Below are positions 3,312 through 18,277 of a stretch of DNA of 64,000 bases, in pieces. The notes below the pieces were generated by a model that was given only the letters and a program-made list of their open reading frames with translations, was not told the DNA's origin and made no database searches. Position 1 is the first letter of the stretch; the number at the start of each line of letters is the position of its first letter. The position numbers and the translations under genes are program-made. Origin of the DNA: a virus; the IMG/VR virus record IMGVR_UViG_3300042556_001053, positions 50,444-114,443 of that record; one strand, 5' to 3'.

Positions 3312-4991
3312 TTAAGCTACTAGTGTTCCTACAACAGTAACTGTTGAATCATTGTACTCTGTGTCTACTAACAGCTGTACATTGCTTCCTGATACTGTTG
3401 CAGAGATTGCTGATAGTGAACCGTTAGTTCCTACAATGCCGTACTCTGTGACTGAAATATTATCTGAAGAATCAAGTGTTAGAAGAACCTTTGAAATTTC
3501 AGTGTGTGTTGAGTAAGCAACCTTTACAAGGTATTCTGCTGAACGATATTCAGCCTTTGCAAAAGCGTGTGCTATCTGAACTCCTGCTGTTGGTGCTGAT
3601 AGAGTTGCTGCAACCTGCTTAGCAACTGAGTTTAACTCAACTGCTGTAAAGTTTGGAACAACTGCTTCAAGAGCATCTACTGCACGAGTGTTTGTGAAGT
3701 AAAGGTTTGTTGTACCTTCATCAAGATCATCAGTATCAGAATCTGCTACACCGTTTTCTGCGGTGATAGTAAGTCCTTCACCTGTTCCTGTAATTGTAAT
3801 ATTTGTAAGTGAAGCACCAGTCAAAAGTGATGCTGCTGAAGACTTAGCACGAGCATCTGTGAAGTACTGTGCTGAACCTTCTGCAATATCATCTGTGTCA
3901 AGTGCGTCTGCGTGATCAATTGCTGCTTGCTGTGCAAGACCAATTTCTGTGCCTGTCTTATATGCTGACCAAACCTCTGTTGAAGAAGATGATGCATCAT
4001 TGATCAAGTCATCTGCGTAGTCCTTAGCGTCTTGCTCTGCTGTGTCAGCATATGACTGGTAAGCAGTTGTAATTGCTGTCTCACGGCCATCTGTGTAAGA
4101 GTTTGCTGATGTTACTGCATCTGATTCTGCTGCATCTACATACTGCTTAGTTGCTGCTCCAAGGTTTGCTGATGGATCTGCTGAAAGGACAAGAAGTCCA
4201 GTCATTGTATCGCCAGACTTAGCTACCTTTTCACCAATTGATGTTCCAATTGTTGAAGCAAACGAAGCATCATCATTTATTGCTGCTGCAAGTTCGTTAA
4301 GTGTATCAAGAAGTTCTGGAGCACCATTTACAAGGTCTGACACCTTTTGATCAGCATAAGCTTTAGCATCTACCTCTGCTTGATCTGCGTATGCCTCGTA
4401 AGCAGTTGTGATTGCTGTCTCACGAGTATCTGTGTAAGCCTTAGCGTCTACTTCTGCCTGATCAGCGTATGCTTCGTAAGCAGTTGTAATTGCACCTTCA
4501 CGGGTGTCTGTGTATGCCTTGGCATCTACTTCTGCTTGATCTGCATATGCTTCGTAAGCATTTGTGATTGCTGTTTCTCTGCCATCAGTGTAATCATTTG
4601 CTGCTTCTTCAGCTGCTGCTGCTGCACCAATTGTATCCCAAAGACCAGTGTTAGCAGTTACTGCACGTTGATTTGTAAAGTAAAGGTTTGTACCTTCTGC
4701 AAGATCGCCTGTGTCGTGGTTTGAAATGTCTGATACTGTACCAGTTACGTTACCTGTTACGTTACCGCTTAGATTTGCTGTAATTGTTCCTGCAGCAAAG
4801 TTTCCTGAACCGTCACGCTTTACAACTGTGTCCGCTGTATTAGCAGATGTGGCTGTTCCGCCAATAAGACTAACAATGTAGTCTTGGTCTGCTTGCTTCT
4901 TTGTAAGAACATCAAATCCGCCAACGGTAGCTGTTGCACCATCAACGACAAGACCATTCTTTACTTTAAAGTTTTTATTTACTGTTGCCAT
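3312..4991 (-). CDS. Tail fibre-like protein with coiled-coil repeats
   Basis: 26-aa repeats YTDxRETAITTAYEAYADQAEVDAKA; APELLDTLNELAAAI fibre motif; DTDDLxEGxxNLYFTNxRA three times. Confidence 0.7.
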   Translation of the reverse strand: MATVNKNFKVKNGLVVDGATATVGGFDVLTKKQADQDYIVSLIGGTATSANTADTVVKRDGSGNFAAGTITANLSGNVTGNVTGTVSDISNHDTGDLAEGTNLYFTNQRAVTANTGLWDTIGAAAAAEEAANDYTDGRETAITNAYEAYADQAEVDAKAYTDTREGAITTAYEAYADQAEVDAKAYTDTRETAITTAYEAYADQAEVDAKAYADQKVSDLVNGAPELLDTLNELAAAINDDASFASTIGTSIGEKVAKSGDTMTGLLVLSADPSANLGAATKQYVDAAESDAVTSANSYTDGRETAITTAYQSYADTAEQDAKDYADDLINDASSSSTEVWSAYKTGTEIGLAQQAAIDHADALDTDDIAEGSAQYFTDARAKSSAASLLTGASLTNITITGTGEGLTITAENGVADSDTDDLDEGTTNLYFTNTRAVDALEAVVPNFTAVELNSVAKQVAATLSAPTAGVQIAHAFAKAEYRSAEYLVKVAYSTHTEISKVLLTLDSSDNISVTEYGIVGTNGSLSAISATVSGSNVQLLVDTEYNDSTVTVVGTLVA

Positions 4992-6259: not shown

Positions 6260-6832
6260 ATGAGAAGAGATAAAAAGATTTGGATTGGAATCCTTGCTGC
6301 ACTTGGGCTTATTGCACCACTAAGTAATGCAGCTAATGCTTTAAGTACTGAAAATAACTTGAGTAAACCAGCCATTGCTGAACCTTCAACCGCCAAGGCG
6401 GTTTTTTTGGTTTCTAAGCCTAAAAGTCTGGTAGCAGTAAAAAAGAACCTAAATGTTCTACATAAGTATCAGGATGCTGTTAGTCTTACAGACCGTCAGT
6501 TAAAGGAGCTTTTGCATGCCGTTGGTTTTCGTGGCCAAGGCCTAGTAAAGGCTTGGGCGGTAGCTAAGAAAGAGTCTAATGGCCGTCCACTAGCTTTTAA
6601 TGGCAATGTTAAGACTGGTGACAACTCTTACGGTATATTTCAAATCAATATGCTTGGAATGCTAAAAGAAGGTCGTCAAGATAAGTTTGGCCTAAACTTT
6701 AATAGTGAGCTCTTAAACCCTGTTATCAATGCACAGGTTGCATATCACATGAGTAATGGTGGAAAGAACTGGTCTGCTTGGAAAGGCATGACTCCAAGAA
6801 CCAAGTCCTGGATGGCTAAGTTCCCTTACTAA
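6260..6832 (+). CDS. Secreted lytic transglycosylase (SLT/lysozyme-like)
   Basis: Signal peptide; AVAKKESNG (catalytic Glu) and SYGIFQIN motifs; AGGAGG RBS; TTGCCT...TGTTATACT promoter. Confidence 0.8.
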   Translation: MRRDKKIWIGILAALGLIAPLSNAANALSTENNLSKPAIAEPSTAKAVFLVSKPKSLVAVKKNLNVLHKYQDAVSLTDRQLKELLHAVGFRGQGLVKAWAVAKKESNGRPLAFNGNVKTGDNSYGIFQINMLGMLKEGRQDKFGLNFNSELLNPVINAQVAYHMSNGGKNWSAWKGMTPRTKSWMAKFPY

Positions 6833-7407
6833 AAAGGCAAATTTTTATTAAGAACTGTTGGGTGCTCATCATTACCTCTCATAAATATTGTTGAGAAGTA
6901 TCTAGGCGAATCATCTAAAACTGGAAGAGATCCATGCATAACTTCTCCTCCATGAAGTAGGGCTGAGCCAGCTTTTGGTTTAATAGTTATTCCTAATTCT
7001 GGGTAGTCAAGCTCTCCACCAAGATAGTTATCATTATAATATATTACAAGGCCATAGCCTAAATAATATCCTTCAGGGGTTGTATCATTATCACGATGTT
7101 GCTTTATTTGATCGCCTTTTTTAAACCTAGAAATCTTTAATTCTTGTTCACAAAAAAAATATGATGGGAATATGTAGTCAACCTTATCAAAAACCAAGCT
7201 TCTACACAAATCTTTATGATCATAAAGGAACAAACTTTTATCGTGCCATAAACTATATTCATCTGAAATTTCATTAAGATCAGTCCAGCCATCTTGTTTT
7301 TTATCAGAAAGTATATTTAAAATTAAAGACAGTTCTTCTTGATTTAAAAAGTTTTCAATTTCATAAACATCCTCTGCAAGTTTGTTAATTTTAAAATTGT
7401 ATTTCAT
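6829..7407 (-). CDS. 2OG-Fe(II) oxygenase, prolyl 4-hydroxylase-like
   Basis: HRD...YYNDNYLGGEL...KPKAG...H...R motifs. Confidence 0.85.
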   Translation of the reverse strand: MKYNFKINKLAEDVYEIENFLNQEELSLILNILSDKKQDGWTDLNEISDEYSLWHDKSLFLYDHKDLCRSLVFDKVDYIFPSYFFCEQELKISRFKKGDQIKQHRDNDTTPEGYYLGYGLVIYYNDNYLGGELDYPELGITIKPKAGSALLHGGEVMHGSLPVLDDSPRYFSTIFMRGNDEHPTVLNKNLPF

Positions 7408-8076
7408 TTAACCAAACTTACTACTACCTATATGGTTCATTTCAATATGATTAATATTAAAATGACTTGGAAGATCTGATACCCACCTAATAGACTCTGC
7501 AAGATCTTCAGCAGTCAAGGCTATTTCACGTCTTTCTGTTTGTGTATCAATAGTTCCTGGGCATATTTCAGTAACCTTAATGCCGTAAGCAGGAAACTCT
7601 AAACGCATAGTATCAACTAGTGCCATCATTCCTCTTTTAGCGTTTATATAGTTACCACCACTACGGTATGGAACCTTTCCACCCAAGGAACTTATAAATA
7701 TAATAGTTGGAGACTTAGACCTTTGCATGCATGGAACAAAAAGCTGTGAAAGGTACATAGGTCCAGAGACATTTATTTCGTAGGCAATTCTAAAATTATC
7801 CATTGTTTCATTTATAAGCATTGTTGGACCTGATCCACCACCAGCATTATTAACTAGAAGGTCAAGTGTGATATCTTTGTATTTTTCAAAAAAAGACTTA
7901 ATCTCTTCAGGATTAGTTATGTCCATCTTGTATGTTTCAACATTGTCAGATACAAGCTCATTGACCTTAGAAAGGTTTCTAGAGACAGCTATAACCTTGT
8001 AGCCACTCTCAGACAGAAGTTTTACTGTAGCATAGCCAACGCCCTTGCTAGCCCCTGTAACTATGGCTGTTTTCAT
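7408..8076 (-). CDS. Short-chain dehydrogenase/reductase
   Basis: TGASKGVG, NNAG, YINAK (YxxxK), CPG motifs. Confidence 0.9.
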   Translation of the reverse strand: MKTAIVTGASKGVGYATVKLLSESGYKVIAVSRNLSKVNELVSDNVETYKMDITNPEEIKSFFEKYKDITLDLLVNNAGGGSGPTMLINETMDNFRIAYEINVSGPMYLSQLFVPCMQRSKSPTIIFISSLGGKVPYRSGGNYINAKRGMMALVDTMRLEFPAYGIKVTEICPGTIDTQTERREIALTAEDLAESIRWVSDLPSHFNINHIEMNHIGSSKFG

Positions 8077-8777
8077 CTGTTGTCCGTAGGCTGTGTACCG
8101 CCAGATAAGTCGTTATACCAGTGCATAGGTATCATATATTTAAAACCACTTTTTACAAGGTGAGCTGTATGATGATAAGGAGGAGAAGATGGGAATATAA
8201 TTACGCTTCCAGCTTCTGGTTTAATTCCTATTGTTATTCTGTCAGAATCCTTGGACAAAGAGTAGTCTTCTGATGGCTTTCCATTAATAATAGGGGCATC
8301 TGGGGACTCTATGGTAAAAGATAATTCGCCACCTTCGTAGTCATCATTTAAATAAAACACTAAAGAGTATCTTAACCTAGTGTCCCCTTCTTGTTGATCA
8401 AAGTGTGCACCCATAAAGGTTCCAGCGCTATATTTTTTAATATCAAAGGCTGGTAGAATCATTGGCTCTTCCATGTCTCCTTTTGATACTGCATAGTCTT
8501 TGCAGACATTATAGAATAAATCAGTTATTGTGTTATATATGTAACTAACAGGGCTAGCATCTTTATCTGCTATTTTTTCAGAATCAGATGGCTGAACAGT
8601 TTTTTGAGATCCATACAAATACATCTCTCCACTGCAGGCTGTCCACTCATTCCATTTAGTCAAGGATGTGCCATAGTCTTTGCTCTCAGTGGCTTCAATC
8701 ATTTCTATAAACTTTTTTGGATCTGCTATTGCATTTTTATAGTAATATATGTTTTCTTCAAGTATTTCTCTTTGCAT
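8073..8777 (-). CDS. 2OG-Fe(II) oxygenase, P4H-like
   Basis: HFD...YLNDDYEGGEL...HHTAH. Confidence 0.85.
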   Translation of the reverse strand: MQREILEENIYYYKNAIADPKKFIEMIEATESKDYGTSLTKWNEWTACSGEMYLYGSQKTVQPSDSEKIADKDASPVSYIYNTITDLFYNVCKDYAVSKGDMEEPMILPAFDIKKYSAGTFMGAHFDQQEGDTRLRYSLVFYLNDDYEGGELSFTIESPDAPIINGKPSEDYSLSKDSDRITIGIKPEAGSVIIFPSSPPYHHTAHLVKSGFKYMIPMHWYNDLSGGTQPTDNR

Positions 8778-9520
8778 TACATTATCCCCTTATTTGATTG
8801 TTGAGGATACATGCTCATGTTGTTGTGTATCCAATGACCTGGAACCATATACTTAAATCCAGACTTTACTGTATGTGCTATATGAAAATATGGTGCTTTT
8901 GCAGGAAAAATTATTACGCTATTTGCTTTTGGCTTTATTCCAAAGTCTATTGATTTGCTTGCCTTGGCTATTTCATAATCTAGGTCTACACCTGGTGCTC
9001 CATGAACCCAGCCTTCGGAGCTATTCCATCCACCATCATAGTCTTTAAGCTGAAATGAAATTTCTCCGCCTTCACAGTCATCATTTAAATACATGACTAA
9101 AGAATATCTTAGTGTTTCATCTCCATCTAGTTGATCAAAGTGTGCTCCCATAGATCTTCCAGTATTATACTTTTTAATATTAAATGTTGGAAACAGATTT
9201 GGCTCATCGTAGTCTCCAAGAGATAAAGCATAATCTTTACATACATTATGAAACGTTTTCATAACAGCATCATAAATATACTTGGTTTTTTCTCCAACCT
9301 CGTCTTTTAATTTATTAATTGAATCTAAATTAAAGGTTTTGGTTTCACCATAGATAAAAGACTTATCGTTAGAAGATGTCCAAGGCTCCCAAACATTTAC
9401 GTTATGTTCACTTGATGCGTCCAATGCGTCCAGCTCTTTTAAAATTTTCTGAAAAGTATCAAAATTTTCTATTGCATCAGTATAATAATAAACCTTTGGA
9501 TCTAAAATTTCTTTATTCAT
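8777..9520 (-). CDS. 2OG-Fe(II) oxygenase, P4H-like (close paralog of 8073..8777)
   Basis: MGAHFDQ...LRYSLVMYLNDDCEGGEI...FHIAH. Confidence 0.85.
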   Translation of the reverse strand: MNKEILDPKVYYYTDAIENFDTFQKILKELDALDASSEHNVNVWEPWTSSNDKSFIYGETKTFNLDSINKLKDEVGEKTKYIYDAVMKTFHNVCKDYALSLGDYDEPNLFPTFNIKKYNTGRSMGAHFDQLDGDETLRYSLVMYLNDDCEGGEISFQLKDYDGGWNSSEGWVHGAPGVDLDYEIAKASKSIDFGIKPKANSVIIFPAKAPYFHIAHTVKSGFKYMVPGHWIHNNMSMYPQQSNKGIM

Positions 9521-9529
9521 TCTGTCTCC

Positions 9530-10189
9530 TTAATATTTATTATTTTCATAGAAGTTTTTTTCTTTTATAAAACCAACTAGAACATATCTAATTGGTCCCT
9601 CACCAACTGGAATTACTCCGTGATGAAAATCGCTAGTTCCTGGGAAAATAAGAAGTGATCCCTTTTTAGGTTTTATTTTTAAATCTAAGTTTTTAAAAAA
9701 CAATTCTCCATCAGCATACTCATCATTAAGATATAAAATGGTTGCATAACGAATTGAGGGATCTGTGTCTTGATCTGTATGAGCCTTTAGTTCAACTCCA
9801 GGCTGCATCCTTTGCAATGTAGCTAGTCCACTTAGCTCTAAATTACTTCCTTCATTAACTACGGCTTTATTTAGTCTTTGATATACAGTGTGATAGATTG
9901 GATATGCCCTTATTACCAGATTCTTGTCTTCCCAGTTTCTGGTGATCTCAAACTTTCCTTCAGCAACAAGATTGTCAACGTCATCTCTACCAAATTTTTC
10001 CATACAGAATCTTTTAAGGTTGGAAGTATATTCTATAAACCAATCCTCGTCTGGTGTATTGTTGATAATCTCTAAATAGTCGTCTATTTCTTCTTGAGAA
10101 ATAAAATCTTCTAATAAAAGTAGATCTTTTGATATTTCTTCAAATTTTATTCCTAGATCAGTTAGCTCTTTTGTAAGATATGCAGACAT
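9530..10189 (-). CDS. 2OG-Fe(II) oxygenase, P4H-like
   Basis: HTD...YLNDEYADGEL...HGV...R. Confidence 0.85.
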   Translation of the reverse strand: MSAYLTKELTDLGIKFEEISKDLLLLEDFISQEEIDDYLEIINNTPDEDWFIEYTSNLKRFCMEKFGRDDVDNLVAEGKFEITRNWEDKNLVIRAYPIYHTVYQRLNKAVVNEGSNLELSGLATLQRMQPGVELKAHTDQDTDPSIRYATILYLNDEYADGELFFKNLDLKIKPKKGSLLIFPGTSDFHHGVIPVGEGPIRYVLVGFIKEKNFYENNKY

Positions 10190-10190
10190 A

Positions 10191-10940
10191 CTAGATTACC
10201 TCCTCTGGCTTATATTTATTTCCATCTTTATCTAGCTTCCACCCTTGCTTAAGTAGCTCTTGCCACTCTGCTCTTTCAATCTCTTGCTTTGCTCTTGTTT
10301 CTTTCATTTCTTCGGCCCATGCATCTCTTACCTCTTGTGGGTAGGCATCTTCTTCACGGTCATCCCAGAAAGATCCTATGGTATATCTTACACCTTTAGT
10401 AATTAACGATACTTCGTGCATATTATTAAATCCACCGTCAAATACGGCAAGCATTCCAACCTTTGGCTGAATTTCTATGTTTTGATCTGGAAATCTTAAA
10501 AGACCACCTTCAAAATCATCGTTTAAGTACAGGAATCCTGCATATCTACTTCTTGTAAATGCTCCAGAATTGCCCTTCTCATCTGTATTATCAGAGTGTA
10601 CTCTTGCATAAGCACCTGGCTCCCACTTTTGAGTATGATATCCAATTTTAGAAATTATTTTTGGGTCTAAGTCATGTACTGATGCAATTGCTTCTGGCAT
10701 CTTACTTTCAATATCTGAAAAAATAGTTGGAGATAGCCCAGCGTCAATTACCTCTTGATCATTGTCTTGTGGTAGCACTGAAGAATATGACTCATAAAAT
10801 GATATAGGCATCCAAGTTAGTCCGCCGTTATTTGCTTGTGCATCAAGTGCATTAATCATCTTTTTGCACTCATCTTCACTAACAAAGTTTTCAAAAATAA
10901 CAATATCCTTTGTAAGTCTTATCTTATTGTTTAGGTTCAT
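10191..10940 (-). CDS. 2OG-Fe(II) oxygenase, P4H-like
   Basis: HSD...YLNDDFEGG...HEV...RY. Confidence 0.85.
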   Translation of the reverse strand: MNLNNKIRLTKDIVIFENFVSEDECKKMINALDAQANNGGLTWMPISFYESYSSVLPQDNDQEVIDAGLSPTIFSDIESKMPEAIASVHDLDPKIISKIGYHTQKWEPGAYARVHSDNTDEKGNSGAFTRSRYAGFLYLNDDFEGGLLRFPDQNIEIQPKVGMLAVFDGGFNNMHEVSLITKGVRYTIGSFWDDREEDAYPQEVRDAWAEEMKETRAKQEIERAEWQELLKQGWKLDKDGNKYKPEEVI

Positions 10941-11818
10941 TTTATTCTCACAGCTCCTTCTATTTCGTTTCTTTGTGGATGATCTTTTCTAAACTGTTCA
11001 TGTATTTCTGGTTGCATGCTTGCCCATACATGCTTACCAAACTCTTTTTCTTTTTCATACCATTCATCAGACCCTTTTTCATACTTTTGCCAATACATTC
11101 TTGACAAAAACTTATTTTTATTGTAAGAAGGCATTACTCCATGTAAGTATGGATCACCATTTTCTGTTAAATAATCGGGATGCCCTGATGGAAAAACAAG
11201 TAGGTCTCCTGCTTGTGGCTTATATTTAACAAGCTTATCTCCCATTGCAAAGTCAACCTCTCCGCCTTCATAGTCGTCATTAAAATAAATAGTGCATGTT
11301 ATTACAAACTTGTATCCTGGAGCATCTGCCATCTCTCTCTGATAGTCTGAATGATATCTCATCCCTACCTTTTCTTCATCAGTGCTTACATGATACTTTC
11401 CAACTGTTCCACCAGCCCACTTCCAGGTTGGAACAGTCTGACCACTTTCATCTACAGACAAGTCATCTAAATCTACTTCTACCCCATACTTTTTAATATA
11501 GTGCTCTGTAGCCAAATAAAAGTTTTCCAACATCTCTATTGCAAAGAGTCGCTGGTCTTCCTGAGACTGTGTTGTTGTTTTGATATCTTTTAAACCGCCG
11601 TACTTATCGTACATAATCAGATTAGGTATTATTGGGCTTAAGTATTCTCCAAAAATAGACCATTGTGTCCAAGGGCTAAAAAGTCTATCTTCTGAGTTAT
11701 CCAAAGAATCATTTAAAACTTTGTAAGATTTTGAAATATCTTTAAACATATTTTTATAAACTACAATATTTGGGTATATTTCTTCAAACACAATACCATT
11801 TTCTTGGGTGTTGTTCAT
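10937..11818 (-). CDS. 2OG-Fe(II) oxygenase, P4H-like
   Basis: HSD...YFNDDYEGGEV...YLHGV. Confidence 0.85.
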   Translation of the reverse strand: MNNTQENGIVFEEIYPNIVVYKNMFKDISKSYKVLNDSLDNSEDRLFSPWTQWSIFGEYLSPIIPNLIMYDKYGGLKDIKTTTQSQEDQRLFAIEMLENFYLATEHYIKKYGVEVDLDDLSVDESGQTVPTWKWAGGTVGKYHVSTDEEKVGMRYHSDYQREMADAPGYKFVITCTIYFNDDYEGGEVDFAMGDKLVKYKPQAGDLLVFPSGHPDYLTENGDPYLHGVMPSYNKNKFLSRMYWQKYEKGSDEWYEKEKEFGKHVWASMQPEIHEQFRKDHPQRNEIEGAVRIK

Positions 11819-12702
11819 CTTAATCTAACCCCATTATCTATTGTAATTCTTTGTAGGTTTTCTTTTTCATATTGACCCTGAATCTTATTCATCTCTGACT
11901 GCCAAGAGTCACCAAAAATTAGACTTTTTTCTTTCCACTCATCAGATGAGTCTTCATATACTGTCCAAAACATCCTTATAAAATATTTTTCATTTTCTTT
12001 ACAAATTTCTGCAGCATGTAGATATACCTCACCATCTTCTGTGGAATATTCTGGATGTCCTGAAGGAAAAACAACAAAATCTCCAGCTTTTGGTTTATAG
12101 TTTATTAGCTTATTGCCAACTGCAAAGTCAATTCCGCCTCCTGAATAATTATCATTTAGGTATATGGTTGTAGTCAAAACAAACTTATATCCTGGGCCCT
12201 TTATAGCTTCTCTAACATAGTCGCTGTGATATCTCATTGCTAATCTTTCAGAGTCTGGCCCAGCAGCGGTAGAACCAACATAATATTTACACAAAGATGG
12301 TCCAGTCCAGTTCCACTTTTGATATTTTTTTCCATCTGATTGAACAGTATCTTTTTCTTCTTTGTGTATTGGGAAGTTGTGTTTTTCAATATAGTGGTTA
12401 TTAGCCAAATGAAATGCTTTAATTAATTCAATCATAAAATATCTTTGATCTTCTTGAACCTTGCTAGTAGGTTCTATGTCAAAGTTAATTTTAAGATCTG
12501 AGACATTTTTATCAAAAGATATTCCAAAGTTTTCTATTTTTTCACCTATAGAGTACCAGTCATTCCACTTGTCCCATATAGCATCTTCATAATTATTTAT
12601 TGAATCTTTTGCAATCTGATACATTCTTTCTGGGTCTTCAAATATGTTATTGTAAACAACAATATTTGGATAAATTTCTTCAAATGTAAGTTCTGTAGTC
12701 AT
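11815..12702 (-). CDS. 2OG-Fe(II) oxygenase, P4H-like (paralog of 10937..11818)
   Basis: Start reassigned to MTTELTFEEIYPN; HSD...YLNDNYSGGG...YLHAA. Confidence 0.85.
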   Translation of the reverse strand: MTTELTFEEIYPNIVVYNNIFEDPERMYQIAKDSINNYEDAIWDKWNDWYSIGEKIENFGISFDKNVSDLKINFDIEPTSKVQEDQRYFMIELIKAFHLANNHYIEKHNFPIHKEEKDTVQSDGKKYQKWNWTGPSLCKYYVGSTAAGPDSERLAMRYHSDYVREAIKGPGYKFVLTTTIYLNDNYSGGGIDFAVGNKLINYKPKAGDFVVFPSGHPEYSTEDGEVYLHAAEICKENEKYFIRMFWTVYEDSSDEWKEKSLIFGDSWQSEMNKIQGQYEKENLQRITIDNGVRLR

Positions 12703-12703
12703 A

Positions 12704-13378
12704 TTACGGCTTTCTGTCTCCAGTATGTTCCGTAATTTCCCAAAAAAATGGACATGTAAATCTAAGCCCACTTTTTATTTCTGTGACCCCATGTATATAG
12801 TTCATATCTCCAGGGAAAAAATATGCTGCTCCTTTTTTAGGTTTAAATTGAACTCCTTGATTTGGAAAGTATAGCTCTCCGCCTTCGTAGTCTTCATTTA
12901 AATAAAACAAACTGGAAAGATCATAGTTTGGAAAATCATTTGGCAGTCCTGCGTCTGGCCCGTCGTGCAGTTCTTTATCAGCGTGTGGTTTTTGGAATTG
13001 TCCTGGAAGCCACTTGACAATTGTTGTTCCTGTAGGAATTACTTTTACTTTATAAAATTCTTCTACTATTGGTTGCAATCTTTGAAATAGGCCAGCAATG
13101 ACTGGAGATATCTTTGGATCGTTTTTGTCTAAACTTGGCTGTGTTGCAACTCTATCTTTCCAATAATCTGAATCGTATACTACTGTACCGTTTTCATTTA
13201 CATGGCTTTCTGTTACATCCCAAATTGTTAAAGATTTTGCAGCCTTTTCTAAAAACTCTATTTCTTCTTGTGTCATAAAGTTTTCTAGCTCAACAATCAT
13301 TTCTTTGCCACTACCAAACCAGCCAGAAGGTGTTATTGATGGCTTTCTAACCACAACAGAAGCTTTTATATTATCCAT
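12704..13378 (-). CDS. 2OG-Fe(II) oxygenase, P4H-like
   Basis: HAD...YLNEDYEGGELYF...HGV...R. Confidence 0.85.
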   Translation of the reverse strand: MDNIKASVVVRKPSITPSGWFGSGKEMIVELENFMTQEEIEFLEKAAKSLTIWDVTESHVNENGTVVYDSDYWKDRVATQPSLDKNDPKISPVIAGLFQRLQPIVEEFYKVKVIPTGTTIVKWLPGQFQKPHADKELHDGPDAGLPNDFPNYDLSSLFYLNEDYEGGELYFPNQGVQFKPKKGAAYFFPGDMNYIHGVTEIKSGLRFTCPFFWEITEHTGDRKP

Positions 13379-13380
13379 AA

Positions 13381-14109
13381 TTAGATTATACCATTTCCTT
13401 TGCTTGCTGTATTGTCCGTAACAGAAAGACGGATAACCTTTGTTTCGTGAGAGCCTTTACTTTCACCCTTTTCATTAATTGCATCTCTATACCAATCGGT
13501 CCATTCACCAGATTGATTAATTTTTTGTGCAGCTTCTCCATATGACTGATGAGCTTTTTCTCTACTACGATCTGGATCTGAATAATCAAATATTTGAATT
13601 GATGTATTGTCCATTGCTGTCAAAGAGATTGGTACTATAGTTGCAAGAGGTGTACCTGCTTTTATAGTAATTTCTTTATTCGCAGATCTTGCTTTAATTG
13701 CTAATGGGAAACCAGTATCTAGCCAAGATGTACTGATTAAAGAAGACATGGTTTCAAAGTCTTCACTAAAATAGTTTACTGGGTTAATAGTGAACATGCT
13801 TACGTTTTGTTCAGATCTAAAGGTGAGCCCTGTATGTATACTTACTGTAGATTGTCCCCTGCCAGTATAAGTAAACCCTTCTCCCTCTATAACTTTAACA
13901 TTTTCTGAACTTGTATCGTTTATTCCATTCCATATAAACTTGATATCCTCTTTAGCTGAAAGATTCCACCCAACCATGTTTGCTTGGGTTACTGGAAAAC
14001 ATCTGTATGCATGCTTTTCTGGAGTAAGATCCATCCAGTCTCTTTTTATTGACATTGGAGAAATTATAATTTTTGAATCTGGAAATCTTTCAACAGAGAT
14101 ATTTAACAT
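13381..14109 (-). CDS. DUF6065-like protein
   Basis: RDWMD...HAYRCFPVTQANMVGW and GTPLATIVP motifs. Confidence 0.65.
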   Translation of the reverse strand: MLNISVERFPDSKIIISPMSIKRDWMDLTPEKHAYRCFPVTQANMVGWNLSAKEDIKFIWNGINDTSSENVKVIEGEGFTYTGRGQSTVSIHTGLTFRSEQNVSMFTINPVNYFSEDFETMSSLISTSWLDTGFPLAIKARSANKEITIKAGTPLATIVPISLTAMDNTSIQIFDYSDPDRSREKAHQSYGEAAQKINQSGEWTDWYRDAINEKGESKGSHETKVIRLSVTDNTASKGNGII

Positions 14110-14786
14110 TACATTTTATCCTGAGTAAACATATCTGGAGTATGGAACTTTTTGTTATAATCCAACATAGTAACAATAGAGTATTTTGTTCCAGATTCTA
14201 CTGGCATAGCTTGATGAGGATACATGTAGTTTGATGGGAAGATATACAGATCTCCAGCCTTTGGCTTAATCTTTAAATCTTGCAATCTAAAGTACAACTC
14301 GCCACCTTCATAGTCATCATTGATGTATGCAACAAGAGAGACTGTACAATTATAAGAATACCCATGGTCATGGTGCTCCATAAAGTGTTGTCCTGGACCA
14401 TACTTTATAAAGTTAAAGGCTTCCCAATATTTAAGATCCATAATGTTGTAATCTTTTCTGTAATCTTCAACTGCCTGGAACTGAGCATCATATACATCTT
14501 GCCAAAGAGATTGTAGCTTTAAAGATGTTTCGCTTTTATCTAGCTCTATATCTGTTTTCTTAAACTTAAAATCAACACAGTCTCTGTAGTCTGGAATAAG
14601 TTGCTGGTACCCAACGTATGCTGGCATCCAGTGGTATCTGTTACCTTCTGGAGATAATTCTCCGTATCCAGCTACTGACCCTAAATTTTCTTCAAGTCTT
14701 TCTATTACATTGAAGTCTTTTTTTATTACATCTCTGTAACATACAATTCCATTACCAAGATTTATTTTTTCTGTCCATGTTTGCAT
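14109..14786 (-). CDS. 2OG-Fe(II) oxygenase, P4H-like
   Basis: HHD...YINDDYEGGELYF...FPSNYMYPH...GTKYS. Confidence 0.85.
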   Translation of the reverse strand: MQTWTEKINLGNGIVCYRDVIKKDFNVIERLEENLGSVAGYGELSPEGNRYHWMPAYVGYQQLIPDYRDCVDFKFKKTDIELDKSETSLKLQSLWQDVYDAQFQAVEDYRKDYNIMDLKYWEAFNFIKYGPGQHFMEHHDHGYSYNCTVSLVAYINDDYEGGELYFRLQDLKIKPKAGDLYIFPSNYMYPHQAMPVESGTKYSIVTMLDYNKKFHTPDMFTQDKM

Positions 14787-14795
14787 AGTTTCCCC

Positions 14796-15572
14796 CTATT
14801 TATATTCTCTTCTTGTCCAAACCTTATTTTTATAAACGCCACCATCTGGTTGTCTATAAAAATTTGCATTACTCATCATTTTAGCATAAATTTCTGTTGA
14901 GCCTATAAAGTTTATTTCATGACTCCAGTCTTCTCTTTTAAAAGGCAGTATCTGTACATATGGTGTTCCTGCTGGAAGCGTTCCTTCCCAACCTTCTGTA
15001 ATAAAAAATGGAAAAGTACCTAGAAGATGAACACTATCATTGTCAACAACTCCAGTGGTATTTATAAATGGCAAATCAAAACGATTCATTGGGGTCATGA
15101 ATAATGCACTGTATCCTTCTGGCAATTCTAGGCCCCAGTCTGGGTACCAGGCAAAATGCTCTCTATAATATCCTTTTGGTTGCTCAAATTGTGGCATTGC
15201 CATTCTTTTGCTGCAAAAATCTTGATGTCGTGTATCTTCTATTTTTACATCTATAGAACCGCTTGCTGTTTTAAAAAAAGTAATATCACAAGGAGTTTTT
15301 AATACATATCCTGTTGTAAATGCATCCATGATTGCTGGACATGCTTTCCATGTAGGAATCTTTCCATAGTCATCTTTTGTTCCTTCTTTAGGAAATGGAC
15401 AAATCTGCGGTGTGGCTTTGTAGTATTCACCAATAGGATCTTTGGCAAACCTATCTGCATCTTTGTACCATTGTGGAATTACTGCTTGTGTTGGTGATGG
15501 AACAGAGGGACTATCCTTTGTAACCCATGGCCTATAAGCTGTAAACTTTGCAATATTTTCTTTTAATGTCAT
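14796..15572 (-). CDS. DUF6065-related protein (possible dUTPase-like beta fold)
   Basis: IPQWYK, KACPAIMD, PEGYS, GVVDND and GTPYVQILPFKRE motifs. Confidence 0.55.
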   Translation of the reverse strand: MTLKENIAKFTAYRPWVTKDSPSVPSPTQAVIPQWYKDADRFAKDPIGEYYKATPQICPFPKEGTKDDYGKIPTWKACPAIMDAFTTGYVLKTPCDITFFKTASGSIDVKIEDTRHQDFCSKRMAMPQFEQPKGYYREHFAWYPDWGLELPEGYSALFMTPMNRFDLPFINTTGVVDNDSVHLLGTFPFFITEGWEGTLPAGTPYVQILPFKREDWSHEINFIGSTEIYAKMMSNANFYRQPDGGVYKNKVWTRREYK

Positions 15573-16285
15573 TACTTATGACCTAGCTCATTTATATCTG
15601 TCATGACTACGACACAATACTTTGTACCGCTCTTCATTGGCAGAGATGCATGCTCATATATGTAGTTTGATGGAAACACTGCAATGTCTCCTACCTTTGG
15701 AGTAAGAGTGTAGCCATCTAATCTTGGAAATTGAATCTCTCCGCCTTCATAATCATCGTTAATATAGATAACTGCAGATACTGTAGCATTATATGCTGGT
15801 CCGTGATCAGCATGAATATTAAAGTGTTTTCCTTCGCCTTCATATTTGACAAAGTTGAATGCTTCATAATAAACAACATTAATTCCCCAGTATCTTGCAT
15901 AATCATCTATACAAAGCTTTAGCTTTTCGTATATCTCCTGATGTAAATCAATGAGCTCACTATTGAAAGGATCTCTTGGTCCCAAATTTTCCTGCTTGTA
16001 TTTAAAGTCAACGCAATCTCTTGCTCGTTTAATTGGTGTAGCAGAGTTTGTAACTGTTGCTTCAGACCATCTAAACTTTTTTGTTCCGTCTAAGTTAGAT
16101 TCAAGTGTGTTTATATATCTTTTTGAATCTTCTAAAGAAAACACATTTCTATATATGTTCAAACCAAGACCTGGGTTCTCTATTACAATATTGTGCTCAG
16201 GTATAGCCCTATCAACCTTGTTTGTTATTGTCTCTGATCTGTCCTTGGTAAACCATGGGTTTTCATTTTCATCATAAATTTCCAT
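15572..16285 (-). CDS. 2OG-Fe(II) oxygenase, P4H-like (paralog of 14109..14786)
   Basis: HAD...YINDDYEGGEI...FPSNYIYEH...GTKY. Confidence 0.85.
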   Translation of the reverse strand: MEIYDENENPWFTKDRSETITNKVDRAIPEHNIVIENPGLGLNIYRNVFSLEDSKRYINTLESNLDGTKKFRWSEATVTNSATPIKRARDCVDFKYKQENLGPRDPFNSELIDLHQEIYEKLKLCIDDYARYWGINVVYYEAFNFVKYEGEGKHFNIHADHGPAYNATVSAVIYINDDYEGGEIQFPRLDGYTLTPKVGDIAVFPSNYIYEHASLPMKSGTKYCVVVMTDINELGHK

Positions 16286-16440
16286 ATATATCCCCTTTTT
16301 ATTTTATTATACACTATCTTTATTTTTTTGTAAAACAATTTAAATATTATTGCAAACCTTTTGCAACATATAAGATCTAGCACTCATAAAAACACAAAAG
16401 GCCAAACAATGTTGGCCAATTGTATTACTGCTTTTTTATT

Positions 16441-17517
16441 TTATACTACACCTGGTAGTGTGAAGTATGGGAAGAACGGTCCAACTCCAAACCCTGGGAA
16501 GAACGGTGGGAAGAATGGGAAGAACGGGAAGAATGGGAAGAACGGTGGGAAGAACGGGAAGAATGGGAAGAACGGGAAGAACGGTGGGAAGAATGGGAAG
16601 AACGGGAAGAATGGGAAGAACGGTGGGAAGAATGGGAAGAACGGGAAGAATGGGAAGAACGGTGGGAAGAACGGGAAGAATGGGAAGAACGGGAAGAAAG
16701 GTGGGAAGAATGGAGGGAAGAATGGGAAGAAAGGAGGGAAGAATGGAGGGAAGAACGGTGGGAAGAATGGGAAGAACGGTGGGAAAAATGGCGGGAAGAA
16801 TGGAGGAAAGAATGGGAAGAACGGAGGAAAGAACGGTGGGAAAAATGGAGGGAAGAAAGGAAAGAATGGAAAGAATGGTGGAAAGAATGGTCCTAATGTA
16901 ACAACAACAGAGTTAGAGTTTGAAGATACTGGAGATGATCCATTTGCATTTGTTGCAATAACTGTATATGTATATGTTCCTGCTGTTGTTTCTGTAATAG
17001 TAAGTGGGGTTCCTGTGCCAGTTGCTGTTTTTCCAGAAGTAGAAGTGACTGTATAGTTTGGAGTAGTTAAAGCTGAGTTTCCAATTTGTGCAGATGTAAG
17101 GTTTGTAAAAGGAATAGTTACAATTCCAGTTGTTCCATTAACTGATGCTGTTCCAATTGTTACCTGAGCTGGCTTAGATGTTGGGACTACAGCATTACTT
17201 GCTGAAGAAGCTGCAGAAACTCCGATTGCATTTGTTGCGGTAACGGTAAAAGTATAATTTGCTGGAGTTCCACTTGTTGACAAACCTGTTATAACTATTG
17301 GAGAAGATGATCCAGTTCCTGTATGTCCACCAGATGAGGTTACTGTATATCCTGTAATAGGCATCTTGCCATTATAAGAAGGGGCTGAAAAAGATACAGA
17401 AACCTGACCGCTATTAAATGTGCGTCCTGATCCTTGGTCTGTAGCTGTGCCAATTACTGGTGCGTTTGGAACTGACTTCTTTGATGAATCTGTTGTACCA
17501 GTATTTTTTGGGCTCAT
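16441..17517 (-). CDS. Protein with two FN3-like domains and a Pro/Phe-only C-terminal repeat tail
   Basis: PNAP...VSFSAPSYNG..ITGYTVT...YTFTVTATNAIG.S.AS FN3 signature twice, then PFF/PPFF repeats; leaderless after TGGTACAAT. Confidence 0.85.
   Translation of the reverse strand: MSPKNTGTTDSSKKSVPNAPVIGTATDQGSGRTFNSGQVSVSFSAPSYNGKMPITGYTVTSSGGHTGTGSSSPIVITGLSTSGTPANYTFTVTATNAIGVSAASSASNAVVPTSKPAQVTIGTASVNGTTGIVTIPFTNLTSAQIGNSALTTPNYTVTSTSGKTATGTGTPLTITETTAGTYTYTVIATNANGSSPVSSNSNSVVVTLGPFFPPFFPFFPFFPPFFPPFFPPFFPFFPPFFPPFFPPFFPFFPPFFPPFFPPFFPFFPPFFPPFFPFFPFFPFFPPFFPFFPFFPFFPPFFPFFPFFPFFPPFFPFFPFFPFFPPFFPFFPFFPFFPPFFPGFGVGPFFPYFTLPGVV
16495..16890 (-). repeat. Coding tandem repeat of 9-nt (PFF) and 12-nt (PPFF) units
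   Basis: 396 nt encoding 56 Pro and 76 Phe and nothing else. Confidence 0.95.
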
Positions 17518-17557
17518 AGCAGTAATTGTACCATAAGATTATACAGTTTTTGATATT

Positions 17558-18277
17558 TTATCTAACAGATATATAAATAGATTTAGCAACCATTGAGGCA
17601 TCATTATCTGTCAATATTTGTGGTAGTCCGCCATAGTTTCTAACCATGTCATTTTCTATAAAAAAGGTGTGCTCTAATGACATGTCATATGAAAACTGAT
17701 ACTTTAGGTTTGCAGCAAAGGTAGTAGGCCAAAAGTCAGACTCTGGTATGTAAGTTCTAAACCAAACTTCAGTGTTGTTGGTAAGGGTAGTCAAAATAAT
17801 ATCATAACGGACTGTTACAATTGAGCCAACCTTTAGTGCTTTAAGGTTTATTTTTTGTGATTGTGAGTTATATAATGAAACGTTATTTTCTGGTAAATAA
17901 AGCTCGTTATTTTTACCCCTACAGTCAAAGCTAAAGCTAACCCAGCCGTCATTTCCTTTTGTAGCACCAAGAGTAATATTTTTTTGATCTTTGTTTGTAT
18001 AAAGAGCCCAACCAGTTCTTTGACCTGATGGAGACAAACTGCTTTCTCCTGCTATTCCATCCCTACCGTTTTTTCCATCTTTACCAGGTTTTCCAGGTTC
18101 TCCCTGTGGTCCTTGTTTGCCTTCTGGTCCAGAATCGCCTTTATCACCCTTTGGGCCCTGTTCTCCTTGTGGTCCAGGAACAGCTATGAAAGAAACTGAT
18201 TGCTCAAGTTGATAAGAGTTGTTTACATTGTCTGAATATTTTTTAGACTTCCCTGGAAAATCCATGCTAGTTGACAT
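17558..18277 (-). CDS. Collagen-like (Gly-X-Y) protein with C-terminal globular domain
   Basis: GPQGEQGPKGDKGDSGPEGKQGPQGEPGKPGKDGKNGRDGIAGES. Confidence 0.85.
   Translation of the reverse strand: MSTSMDFPGKSKKYSDNVNNSYQLEQSVSFIAVPGPQGEQGPKGDKGDSGPEGKQGPQGEPGKPGKDGKNGRDGIAGESSLSPSGQRTGWALYTNKDQKNITLGATKGNDGWVSFSFDCRGKNNELYLPENNVSLYNSQSQKINLKALKVGSIVTVRYDIILTTLTNNTEVWFRTYIPESDFWPTTFAANLKYQFSYDMSLEHTFFIENDMVRNYGGLPQILTDNDASMVAKSIYISVR

What the first reader, a model, noticed from the sequence alone, without database searches (positions are those of the whole stretch)
16495..16890. A 132-residue two-letter (P/F) polymer with higher-order periodicity
Seen: 38 FF dipeptides and 56 Pro, arranged as a short lead-in, [(PPFF)3-PFF]x3, PPFF, [PPFF-(PFF)3]x5, PPFFP. 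Pro codons vary (CCA/CCG/CCT) but no other amino acid appears, which indicates protein-level selection. Established in peptide-materials work: Phe-Phe self-assembles, Pro-Phe-Phe is among the most aggregation-prone tripeptides, and Hyp-Phe-Phe forms stiffer assemblies. Inference: a self-assembling or adhesive hydrophobic fibre whose solubility or stiffness is set by hydroxylation and glycosylation.
Basis: partly seen in the sequence, partly recalled or inferred. Interest (0 to 1): 0.8.

Follow-up and report, generated by a model that had tools for sequence, protein, structure and literature searches.

The report
Phage Pro-Phe polymer beside hydroxylase battery
An uncultured lake phage of actinobacteria makes a small fibre-type protein ending in 132 residues of only proline and phenylalanine; this repeat recurs in hundreds of related phage contigs, next to collagen-type hydroxylase-like genes, so it is a testable candidate substrate, but no chemistry or assembly has been shown.

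Summary
Window 16495-16890 (minus strand) encodes 132 residues of only P (56) and F (76), as residues 210-341 of a 358-aa ORF (16441-17517) whose N-terminus folds as two Fn3 domains.

The tract is real and translated. About 170 distinct relatives from independent metagenomes keep a (P1-2[F/Y]F)n block while their codons differ. The grammar is strict: no FFF, almost no PPP, and PFF runs capped at three.

The block is a module. It joins an Fn3 body to variable end modules (BIL/Hint, Cys-rich or short motifs), and it also sits inside giant fibre proteins.

In 75/79 loci, and 39/39 in the reverse test, it lies just upstream of an array of prolyl-hydroxylase-like 2OG oxygenases plus DUF6065. Here the array has ten oxygenases, two DUF6065 genes and an SDR.

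The array has the make-up of the cyanophage Syn9 dioxygenase cluster, whose substrate is unknown.

Best reading: a collagen-analogous rod of a virion fibre protein, and a candidate hydroxylation substrate. Self-assembly, adhesion and hydroxylation are all untested, and glycosylation has no local support.

The host is probably a freshwater actinobacterium.

This scan has already found the same system on other genomes.

The parts
16441..17517 (-). Gene for the 358-aa Fn3-Fn3-(P/F)132 protein (P0001)
   Evidence: ORF and translation. It lies on the same strand as all neighbouring genes. 79 related viral loci were retrieved.
16891..17517 (-). N-terminal body, residues 1-209: two Fn3/Ig-like domains
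   Evidence: Pfam fn3 E 1.9e-4, 22 bits against a cut-off of 25. AF2 pLDDT is above 90 for residues ~15-208, all beta. BFVD matches are 'Fibronectin type III [uncultured Caudovirales phage]' and actinophage minor tail proteins.
16495..16890 (-). The 132-residue P/F tract: 38 units of PFF or PPFF
   Evidence: Codon use is atypical for the genome: TTC is 91% of Phe codons against 21% background, Fisher p 2.5e-36. AF2 pLDDT is 50-62 with no regular secondary structure.
16444..16494 (-). 17-residue end motif GFGVGPFFPYFTLPGVV (the stop codon is at 16441-16443)
   Evidence: The ..P[YF]FT[LI]PGV. ending is shared by 7 of 174 distinct family members. Other members carry Cys-rich, BIL/Hint or other ends in this position.
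16400..16417 (-). Terminator-like hairpin plus T-run, 24 nt after the stop codon
   Evidence: A hairpin plus T-run was detected downstream of the P/F gene in 14 of 58 distinct relatives.
16306..16334 (-). Promoter-like site TTTACA-17-TATAAT (11 of 12 positions) ahead of the first oxygenase gene
   Evidence: It suggests the P/F gene and the enzyme array are adjacent but separate transcription units. This is an inference.
6829..16285 (-). 13-gene enzyme array: ten PF13640 2OG-Fe(II) oxygenases (6829-7407, 8073-8777, 8777-9520, 9530-10189, 10191-10940, 10937-11818, 11815-12771, 12704-13378, 14109-14786, 15572-16285), one SDR (7408-8076) and two DUF6065-type genes (13381-14109, 14796-15572)
   Evidence: Pfam. 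The HxD...H triad is invariant in all ten oxygenases. The oxygenase profile best matches peptidyl-prolyl 4- and 3-hydroxylases. 14796-15572 has no Pfam hit; its assignment rests on the alignment and profile with 13381-14109.
17558..18277 (-). Collagen-like (GXY)n protein gene directly upstream: a rival or additional hydroxylase substrate
   Evidence: Pfam Collagen E 1.4e-8. PHROGs tail-fibre families. Present next to the P/F gene in only 24 of 79 loci, but present once in each of three complete related genomes.
3312..4991 (-). 559-aa tail-fibre-like gene downstream of the array. A 1333-aa fibre-like gene, RNR, portal, protease and capsid genes follow, mostly beyond the window start.
   Evidence: PHROGs.

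Best explanation
The tract is the translated C-terminal rod module of a small minor-tail or fibre-type virion protein. The phage is a ~114-kb siphovirus-like actinophage from fresh water. (P1-2[F/Y]F)n is a conserved, length-variable building block. It connects a folded Fn3 body to a variable end module, which in relatives is a self-cleaving BIL/Hint domain, a Cys-rich knot or a short motif. The block also occurs inside giant fibre proteins of the same phages. I infer that it forms an extended, polyproline-II-like rod about 40 nm long if fully extended, probably of several chains held by Phe-Phe aromatic zippers. On this view it plays the part that collagen-like (GXY)n rods play in other phage fibres, and the end module nucleates or anchors the assembly. 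I further infer that its prolines are a substrate of the adjacent battery of collagen-type prolyl-hydroxylase-like oxygenases, with DUF6065 and the SDR as helpers. Hydroxylation would make an otherwise water-insoluble polymer hydratable and hydrogen-bonded. Shown: the sequence, the coding frame, conservation, modularity, synteny and the enzyme family. Inferred: virion location, rod structure, oligomeric state and hydroxylation.
For: Frame and selection: the tract continues a confident Fn3-Fn3 ORF. Homologues use CCA/CCG/CCT/CCC and TTC/TTT at the same conserved P and F positions. Codon use is shifted against the genome background so that T-runs stay at 5 or fewer and C-runs at 3 or fewer. Family: P/F blocks are present in nearly all 79 related loci, in 60 of 120 protein hits and in 174 distinct proteins. 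Grammar: PFF 943, PPFF 843, PPYF 165, PYF 133; no FFF; PPP in 2 of 125 regions; only 6 of 675 PFF runs exceed three units. Modularity: three internal (PPFF)n blocks lie in a ~1500-aa Fn3-rich fibre ORF of the same genome, and blocks lie between bodies and distal domains in other ORFs. End modules among 174 members: 53 Cys-rich, 42 BIL/Hint, 57 other short, 8 basic, 7 FT[LI]PGV, 7 other domains. The Hint profile matches a solved bacterial intein-like domain (2lwy) at E 5.5e-8. Fibre context: a collagen-like gene lies upstream, 559- and 1333-aa fibre-like genes lie downstream, and the Fn3 body resembles actinophage minor tail proteins. Enzymes: the ten oxygenases have an intact HxD..H triad, and their profile matches B. 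anthracis P4H at 7e-15, P3H1 at 9e-13 and PBCV-1 P4H at 3e-12. Synteny: 75 of 79 P/F-selected loci have the array directly downstream on the same strand. 39 of 39 DUF6065-selected loci have a P/F ORF 2.2-3.7 kb upstream. A divergent sub-lineage with (PPHF/PPFF)n tails shows the same layout, and an unrelated GC-51% virus has an extensin-like Pro-rich ORF just before its DUF6065-oxygenase pair. Every P/F-carrying record at least 30% complete has DUF6065. [quoted passage not shown]
Against: There is no proteomic, expression or structural evidence that the protein is in the virion. AF2 gives the tail only pLDDT 50-62 and no defined structure. Nearly all the co-occurrence lies within one phage lineage, so conserved synteny could simply be inherited. 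In this phage a terminator-like hairpin and a strong promoter-like site separate the P/F gene from the array. A collagen-like gene, the classical P4H substrate, is present in all three complete relatives examined. Syn9-type arrays exist without any Pro-rich neighbour, and DUF6065 occurs in other contexts without a P/F gene (L294, L300, L303). A Gly-free sequence cannot form a true collagen helix.
Confidence: 0.5

Rival explanations
1. The tract is a structural module but not a substrate. It is a fibre rod or spacer, and the neighbouring oxygenase array works on something else: the collagen-like or other fibre proteins, or a small peptide or metabolite as proposed for cyanophage Syn9. On this view the adjacency is inherited gene order.
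For: A terminator-like hairpin and a separate promoter-like site lie between the gene and the array. A collagen-like gene is present in all three complete relatives and next door here. The array has the same make-up as the Syn9 cluster, which lies behind fibre genes with no Pro-rich repeats. DUF6065 occurs without P/F genes elsewhere.
Against: The P/F gene is the array's constant immediate neighbour (75/79 and 39/39). The collagen-like gene is adjacent in only 24 of 79 loci and is 16 kb away in one complete genome. The layout recurs in a divergent (PPHF/PPFF)n sub-lineage, and a different Pro-rich protein holds the same position in an unrelated virus.
Confidence: 0.3
2. The tract is a hydrophobic adhesive or anchor, not a rod. 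The P/F stretch would stick to or insert into a hydrophobic surface (host envelope, membrane or the phage's own capsid or tail), with the Fn3 domains displayed outward.
For: The composition is extremely hydrophobic and aromatic. Peptide work shows Pro-Phe-Phe self-associates strongly. The tract is terminal in this protein.
Against: The same block is internal in other proteins, flanked by folded domains on both sides. Self-removing Hint and Cys-rich end modules fit nucleation of an ordered assembly.
Confidence: 0.15
3. The tract is a disordered spacer kept up by replication slippage, and its exact composition has no specific role.
For: Super-units are 90-100% identical as DNA, and length changes come in whole 39-nt steps between near-identical phages. 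AF2 confidence is low.
Against: The composition and grammar are conserved in relatives whose Fn3 parts are only ~40% identical and that use different codons. The second aromatic position is essentially always F, and the first tolerates mainly Y or H. Ordinary T/A/P-rich linkers coexist with P/F blocks in the same protein (L170).
Confidence: 0.06
4. The protein is a RiPP-like precursor. The P/F core would be cut out and tailored by the oxygenases, DUF6065 and the SDR into small hydrophobic peptides.
For: A multi-enzyme tailoring battery lies next to a repetitive peptide. Iyer et al. proposed peptide or secondary-metabolite chemistry for the related Syn9 cluster.
Against: There are no cleavage sites or spacers between units and no protease or transporter in the array. 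The block occurs inside 1000-1500-aa fibre proteins. The N-terminal part is a pair of folded Fn3 domains of the minor-tail type.
Confidence: 0.04
5. The tract is an assembly artefact or an untranslated low-complexity sequence.
For: All six frames are open across the tract, purely because of its base composition. The copy number differs between near-identical contigs.
Against: Independent assemblies from many samples give the same architecture. Only the P/F frame is two-lettered and continuous with the Fn3 ORF. There is codon-level selection.
Confidence: 0.01

Closest known systems
Collagen-like (GXY)n rods in phage and prophage tail-fibre proteins (e.g. E. coli O157 prophage collagens, PMC3368898; the collagen-like minor tail families in PHROGs)
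   Same: Both are period-3, proline-rich, length-variable repeats. Both are placed between folded domains of fibre proteins and next to a terminal module that could nucleate assembly. A true collagen-like gene lies next door here.
   Different: The tract has no glycine at all, so the defining Gly-every-third-residue rule fails. Units of 3 and 4 residues are mixed. The side chains are bulky aromatics, so any multi-chain packing must differ from the collagen helix.
Tandem dioxygenase cluster of Synechococcus phage Syn9 (gp41-gp54), described by Iyer, Abhiman, de Souza and Aravind 2010 (PMC2938197)
   Same: Both have about ten tandem, mutually divergent 2OG-Fe(II) dioxygenases plus a dUTPase-fold protein with a conserved Cys. 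Syn9 gp43 matches my DUF6065 profile at E 7.4e-15, and my DUF6065 model weakly hits the dUTPase fold. Both arrays lie directly behind tail-fibre genes. The closest deposited homologues of the oxygenases are in cyanophages.
   Different: No tryptophan halogenase and no JmjC/MINA-type hit was seen here; an SDR is present instead. Syn9's neighbouring genes have no Pro-rich repeat. The Syn9 substrate is unknown; secondary-metabolite chemistry was proposed.
Viral and bacterial peptidyl-prolyl 4-hydroxylases with Pro-rich repeat substrates: chlorovirus PBCV-1 P4H (PDB 5c5t), B. anthracis P4H (3itq), and plant/algal P4H with extensin-type HRGPs (2jig)
   Same: The array's profile matches these enzymes (3itq 7e-15, 5c5t 3e-12, 2jig 1e-5). 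From general knowledge, they act on polyproline-II-type Pro-rich repeats.
   Different: Known substrates are X-Pro-Gly, (PAPK)n or Ser-Pro(n), never Pro-Phe-Phe. Those systems use one enzyme, not ten paralogues. No activity has been shown here.
[quoted passage not shown]
   Same: The sequence unit is the same. The peptides form helical-like fibres with an aromatic zipper, and hydroxylating the Pro changes packing and hydrogen bonding.
   Different: Those are free tripeptides with charged termini in crystals. Here the units form a covalent polymer mixed with PPFF units and attached to folded domains. The resemblance is a lead, not a test.
Bacterial intein-like (BIL/Hint) domains (PDB 2lwy). From general knowledge, also the self-cleaving C-terminal intramolecular chaperone domains of phage tailspikes and fibres.
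   Same: 42 of 174 family members end in a Hint domain placed directly after the P/F block. Most members inspected have an N-terminal Cys and a C-terminal HN. This would release or activate the C-terminus of the repeat.
   Different: The window's own protein has no Hint domain. Cleavage has not been shown. The tailspike chaperone domains have a different fold.

Membership tests
Fibronectin type III domain (PF00041) | Sequence match to the family model over its curated cut-off | tested here: inconclusive
   P0001 scores 22 bits against a cut-off of 25, E 1.9e-4. Close relatives score 30-54 bits.
Fibronectin type III domain (PF00041) | Seven-strand beta-sandwich fold | tested here: met
   The AF2 model has two all-beta domains with pLDDT above 90. 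Its top BFVD matches are Fn3 proteins and actinophage minor tail proteins.
Collagen triple-helix repeat (PF01391) | Gly at every third residue, (GXY)n | tested here: not met
   The tract contains only P and F, and Pfam gives no Collagen hit for P0001.
Prolyl-4-hydroxylase-type 2OG-Fe(II) oxygenases (PF13640), for the neighbouring enzymes | HxD...H iron-binding triad on a double-stranded beta-helix | tested here: met
   All ten pass the Pfam cut-off. H138, D140 and H191 are invariant in the alignment. The best PDB matches are P4H and P3H enzymes.
Prolyl-4-hydroxylase-type 2OG-Fe(II) oxygenases (PF13640), for the neighbouring enzymes | Hydroxylation of peptidyl proline, here in the P/F tract | not testable with these tools
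   This needs co-expression and mass spectrometry.
Syn9-type tandem dioxygenase cluster (Iyer et al. 2010) | Tandem array of several mutually divergent 2OG dioxygenases | tested here: met
   Ten paralogues share 21-44% identity.
Syn9-type tandem dioxygenase cluster (Iyer et al. 2010) | Accompanying dUTPase-fold protein with a conserved Cys | tested here: met
   The A4 alignment has an invariant Cys. Foldseek gives weak dUTPase hits on a low-confidence model, pLDDT 60. Syn9 gp43 matches the A4 profile at E 7.4e-15, although Pfam DUF6065 itself does not hit gp43.
Syn9-type tandem dioxygenase cluster (Iyer et al. 2010) | Tryptophan halogenases and a JmjC/MINA-type member in the cluster | tested here: not met
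   The 13 genes are ten PF13640 oxygenases, an SDR and two DUF6065-type genes. Pfam gives no halogenase or JmjC hit.
Bacterial intein-like / Hint domain | Hint fold with an N-terminal Cys/Ser nucleophile and a C-terminal His-Asn | tested here: not met
   Not met for the window protein, which ends 17 residues after the tract. Met in relatives: profile against 2lwy at E 5.5e-8, and 7 of 10 aligned members have Cys1 and HN. 42 of 174 members match the Hint profile.
Extensin / HRGP-type Pro-rich repeats | Ser-Pro(3-5) or similar hydrophilic Pro-rich motifs | tested here: not met
   There is no Ser in the tract, and PPP is almost never seen. An extensin-like ORF does hold the equivalent position in the unrelated locus L305.
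RiPP precursor peptide | Leader plus core with cleavage sites, and a dedicated protease or transporter | tested here: not met
   There are no spacers or cleavage motifs between units and no protease or transporter among the 13 array genes. The block also lies inside large fibre proteins.

The most novel reading that the evidence does not exclude
(P1-2[F/Y]F)n is a previously undescribed class of natural fibrous-protein rod: a glycine-free, polyproline-type, multi-chain shaft held by Phe-Phe aromatic zippers. Its assembly and solubility would be set by multi-site hydroxylation from a dedicated battery of about ten P4H-like oxygenases plus DUF6065 and an SDR. It would be the first identified substrate class for the tandem 2OG-oxygenase arrays of phages, and a natural counterpart of the synthetic Pro-Phe-Phe / Hyp-Phe-Phe materials.
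Probability: 0.3. Interest if true: 0.9.

Novelty: new variant of a known kind. Interest (0 to 1): 0.72.

Why it matters
Tandem arrays of 2OG-Fe(II) oxygenases are common in aquatic phages, and their substrate has been unknown since they were described in cyanophage Syn9 in 2010. In this phage lineage one constant neighbour is a protein whose only unusual feature is a long Pro/Phe polymer. That turns the open question into a bench experiment: co-express the protein with the enzymes and look for +16 Da.

The tract is also, as far as the held literature and my own knowledge go, the first natural polymer of the Pro-Phe-Phe unit that materials chemists study as an ultra-stiff, collagen-mimicking self-assembler. 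If it forms an ordered rod, it would add a new design to the short list of fibrous-protein architectures.

The phages concerned appear to be abundant in lakes and probably infect low-GC freshwater actinobacteria, so these fibres may matter for host recognition in a major freshwater virus-host system.

Tried and rejected
- Megablast of the 8-kb region, tblastn of P0001 and tblastn of DUF6065 against deposited phages gave no match.
- An ESM Atlas search with the tail gave no usable hit.
- PHROGs and NCBIfam have no family for P0001.
- The DUF6065 profile against PDB sequences gave only chance-level hits. hhalign of DUF6065 against the oxygenases showed no relation. The AF2 model of DUF6065 is poor (pLDDT 60), so the dUTPase-fold hits are weak taken alone.
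- AF2 of the whole protein gave no confident structure for the tail. No multimer prediction is available, and both fold jobs are used.
- The search for related loci with the DUF6065 alignment failed because it had no conserved stretch.
- The search for homologous proteins with DUF6065 listed only relatives of 70% identity or more.
- Pfam does not recognise Syn9 gp43 as DUF6065. Only my own profile does.
- A terminator after the P/F gene was detected in only 14 of 58 relatives, so 'separate transcription unit' does not generalise.
- Open frames on the other strand, (GKN)n and (GRM..)n, were rejected. They are open only because of base composition, they are heterogeneous, and they run against the gene order.
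- L056 looked like a P/F gene without the array, but the same contig carries the array 10 kb away together with a second P/F gene.
- Literature searches for PPFF, Pro-Phe repeats in phages, and oxygenases or Fn3 in freshwater-actinophage papers found no prior description.
Full report
**Observation.** Window 16441-17517 on the minus strand is a 358-aa ORF.
- Residues 210-341 (window 16495-16890) contain only proline (56) and phenylalanine (76), with 38 FF pairs.
- Tandem Repeats Finder sees periods of 9, 21 and 78 nt over the same span.
- The finding is confirmed as written.

**Coding frame and selection.**
- All six frames are open across the tract, but only because the sense strand never places A or G after T. 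The other frames give mixed low-complexity strings of 3 to 8 residue types, whereas the P/F frame has two.
- The P/F frame continues a pair of Fn3 domains that AlphaFold2 models with pLDDT above 90. It runs in the direction of every neighbouring gene.
The five Abbb super-units are 90-100% identical as DNA, so they are recent 39-nt duplications that copied their synonymous sites.
- The solid evidence comes from relatives. Groups of 9-17 homologues share the same first 14 tract residues yet use CCA, CCG, CCT or CCC and TTC or TTT at each position.
- Codon choice is also shifted against the genome. TTC is 91% of Phe codons in the tract against 21% elsewhere (Fisher p 2.5e-36), and CCG is 30% of Pro codons against 3%. 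CCC is absent from the tract and nearly absent from the repeat blocks across the family. No T-run exceeds 5 bases and no C-run exceeds 3. This looks like selection on a translated, slippage-prone sequence.

**A family, not a one-off.**
Nearly all carry a P/F block of 14 to 145 residues.
- Among 120 protein hits, 60 have the block. The rest share only Fn3 domains.
- A scan for the DNA motif alone found at least 118 more viral stretches.
- Across 185,579 species genomes, true arrays occurred on only about six short contigs. These sit in freshwater MAGs of inconsistent taxonomy (Luteolibacter, Beijerinckiaceae, Acidimicrobiaceae, Chitinophagaceae and a Bacteroidetes bin), several named after Lake Mendota samples. 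They are most simply explained as mis-binned phage.

**Grammar.** Over 125 distinct members:
- The units are PFF (943), PPFF (843), PPYF (165) and PYF (133).
- The second aromatic residue is essentially always F. FFF never occurs, and PPP occurs in 2 regions.
- Runs of PFF stop at three in all but 6 of 675 runs.
- A divergent sub-lineage uses PPHF alongside PPFF.
- Block length ranges from 10 to 145 residues, with a median of 60.
- Near-identical phages differ by exactly one 13-residue super-unit: 145, 132 and 119 in L004, the window and L005, and 74 and 61 in L010 and L009. The higher-order periodicity is therefore partly recent DNA duplication. The cap on PFF runs holds in distant relatives with other codons, which points to a structural rule.
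- The exact copy number here should be treated as uncertain until long reads span it.

**Architecture.**
- The common plan is about 200 residues of Fn3-Fn3 (140 of 174 members start the block at residues 190-230), then the P/F block, then a variable end.
- The end modules are: Cys-rich 53, BIL/Hint 42, other short 57, basic helix-like 8, the window's ..P[YF]FT[LI]PGV. motif 7, and other domains 7.
- The Hint assignment is below threshold in Pfam. A profile of ten such ends matches a solved bacterial intein-like domain (2lwy) at E 5.5e-8 and then inteins. Seven of the ten aligned members have the N-terminal Cys and the C-terminal His-Asn.
- The block is not only a tail. A ~1500-aa Fn3-rich ORF in the same genome (G000:C1:18680-23380, before the window) has three internal (PPFF)n blocks of 15, 19 and 38 residues ahead of a last Fn3-like domain.
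- Other contigs show blocks between bodies and distal Ig-like, beta-rich, Hint or Cys-rich modules. In one case (L170) ordinary T/A/P-rich linkers occur alongside in the same protein.

**Phage and context.**
- The record is a 114,443-bp IMG/VR virus at 37.5% GC, estimated complete.
- It encodes WhiB over the family cut-off; among the control genomes the family hits only Corynebacterium.
- Its capsid protein is 43-45% identical to those of 120-133-kb Streptomyces phages such as Coruscant and BillNye.
- It is therefore an actinophage, probably of a low-GC freshwater host.
- On the minus strand the gene order is: a 133-aa gene, the collagen-like gene, the P/F gene, the enzyme array, a 559-aa and a 1333-aa tail-fibre-like gene, RNR, portal, protease and capsid.
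- The Fn3 body resembles actinophage minor tail proteins and J-type tip-attachment proteins.

**The enzyme array.**
- Directly downstream lie ten PF13640 oxygenases, one SDR and two DUF6065-type genes.
- The ten oxygenases share only 21-44% identity, yet all keep the HxD...H triad.
- Their joint profile best matches peptidyl-prolyl hydroxylases: B. anthracis P4H 7e-15, human P3H1 9e-13, PBCV-1 P4H 3e-12, then collagen P4H and lysyl hydroxylases.
- Using my own HMMs, 75 of 79 P/F-selected loci have the array directly downstream on the same strand, in the order ox, DUF, ox, DUF, ox, ox and so on. Three of the four exceptions are contig ends. The fourth (L056) has the array 10 kb away beside a second P/F gene.
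- Because that sample was chosen through the P/F gene, I ran the reverse test. Among loci chosen by DUF6065 with at least 5 kb upstream, 39 of 39 have a P/F ORF 2.2-3.7 kb upstream.
- Records where the block sits in another protein also carry DUF6065 whenever they are at least 30% complete.
- Stepping further out, a sub-lineage whose DUF6065 is only distantly related shows the same layout with (PPHF/PPFF)n tails. In an unrelated GC-51% virus, an extensin-like PPPxPPP / PPSPF ORF sits just before a DUF6065-oxygenase pair.

**Limits of the linkage.**
- Almost all of it lies within one phage lineage, so shared descent could explain much of it.
- In this phage a terminator-like hairpin (16417-16400) and a strong promoter-like site (16334-16306) separate the gene from the array. 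A hairpin was detectable in only 14 of 58 relatives.
- A collagen-like gene, the textbook P4H substrate, is present once in each of three complete relatives, although 16 kb from the array in one of them.
- DUF6065 also occurs with sulfotransferase-like genes, or alone with oxygenases, without any P/F gene.

**Relation to known systems.**
- Notes from this scan on other genomes pointed to Iyer et al. 2010, and I checked that paper. [quoted passage not shown]
- Independently, my DUF6065 alignment has an invariant Cys, and its low-confidence model hits dUTPases.
- Syn9 gp43 matches my DUF6065 profile at E 7.4e-15, including that Cys, although Pfam's own model misses it.
- The closest deposited homologues of the oxygenases are in cyanophages. 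The Syn9 array also lies directly behind tail-fibre genes, and these have no Pro-rich repeats.
- The array here is therefore a member-like variant of that cluster type, without halogenases or a JmjC member and with an SDR.
- The P/F protein is what this lineage adds: a concrete candidate substrate.

**Mechanism.**
- Shown: a translated, conserved, modular, length-variable P/F block in fibre-type proteins, tightly linked to P4H-like enzymes.
- Inferred: it is an extended polyproline-II-like rod. At 3.1 Å per residue (general knowledge), 132 residues would span about 41 nm and the family median about 19 nm. [quoted passage not shown]
- The variable Cys-rich or self-cleaving end modules would nucleate or anchor the assembly, as trimerisation domains do for collagens and as C-terminal chaperone domains do for phage fibres (general knowledge).
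- Hydroxylating the three proline contexts (F-P-F, F-P-P and P-P-F) would supply hydrogen bonding and solubility.
- AlphaFold2 neither supports nor contradicts this. The tail is modelled without regular secondary structure at pLDDT 50-62.
- Rivals and their weights are listed separately. The main one is that the block is structural but the array acts on other targets.

**Novelty.**
- No paper in the held library describes a natural (PFF)n or (PPFF)n protein or these genes in freshwater actinophages. No Pfam, PHROGs or NCBIfam family covers the block.
- This scan has already met the same system on several other genomes, with similar readings. That is not independent evidence.
The array has no glycosyltransferase, and the only GT2 hit over the family cut-off is about 18 kb away on the other strand.

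Noticed in passing
G000:C1:18680-23380, minus strand (about 27 kb before the window start; held as L219:81-4781): A ~1500-aa Fn3-rich tail-fibre-like ORF has three internal (PPFF)n blocks of 15, 19 and 38 residues, separated by SAS and GAT and followed by a last Fn3-like domain. So the P/F repeat also serves as an inter-domain module in the same phage.
   Followed up: partly
L305:8052-8741 (+), with DUF6065 at 8983-9711 and an oxygenase at 9715-10413: In an unrelated GC-51% viral contig (99.9 kb), an extensin-like low-complexity ORF (PPSPF, TPPQP, (SSTSGS)n and PPPxPPP repeats) lies directly upstream of a DUF6065-oxygenase pair. This may be a second kind of Pro-rich substrate for the same enzyme pair.
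   Followed up: no
L295:6539-7510 (also L297 and L299): A divergent sub-lineage has Fn3-Fn3 proteins with (PPHF/PPFF)n tails ending in a Cys-rich motif, again just upstream of an oxygenase/DUF6065 array.
   Followed up: partly
L300:4714-9666 and L303:5844-9690: Here DUF6065 follows several paralogous genes with a sulfotransferase-like 'TYPRSGSH' N-terminal motif, and there is no P/F gene. This recalls the hydroxylation-then-sulfation idea of Iyer et al. 2010.
   Followed up: no
L306:16055-16843 (Synechococcus phage Syn9 gp43): Syn9 gp43 matches the DUF6065-family profile built here at E 7.4e-15, while Pfam DUF6065 does not detect it. The Pfam family probably under-covers the cyanophage branch.
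   Followed up: yes
window 17518-17560 (minus strand, just upstream of the ATG at 17517): Two extended -10-like motifs (TGTATAAT and TGGTACAAT) lie within about 35 nt of the start codon, and there is no Shine-Dalgarno sequence. This suggests the P/F gene has its own promoter and a very short or absent leader, as is common in actinobacteria.
   Followed up: no
window 52727-52900 (minus strand; G000:C1:103170-103343): A WhiB-family gene (E 2.4e-12, over the cut-off) supports an actinobacterial host.
   Followed up: partly
window 35570-36238 (+): A GT2-family glycosyltransferase hit (E 7.5e-8) lies about 18 kb from the P/F gene on the other strand. It is the only candidate over the family cut-off for any glycosylation of virion proteins.
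   Followed up: no
window 6260-6832 (+): A lysozyme-like (SLT_3) gene lies on the opposite strand, wedged between the oxygenase array and the downstream fibre-like genes.
   Followed up: no
L218:6048-8081 (G000:C1:47047-49080): A ribonucleotide reductase gene sits between a 1333-aa fibre-like gene and the portal gene, inside what is otherwise a virion module.
   Followed up: no
L084, L088, L097, L098, L100 (genome contigs): Short contigs carrying the P/F gene and the oxygenases are binned into MAGs named Luteolibacter, Bacteroidetes, Beijerinckiaceae, Acidimicrobiaceae and Chitinophagaceae. This is probably phage contamination of those bins.
   Followed up: partly
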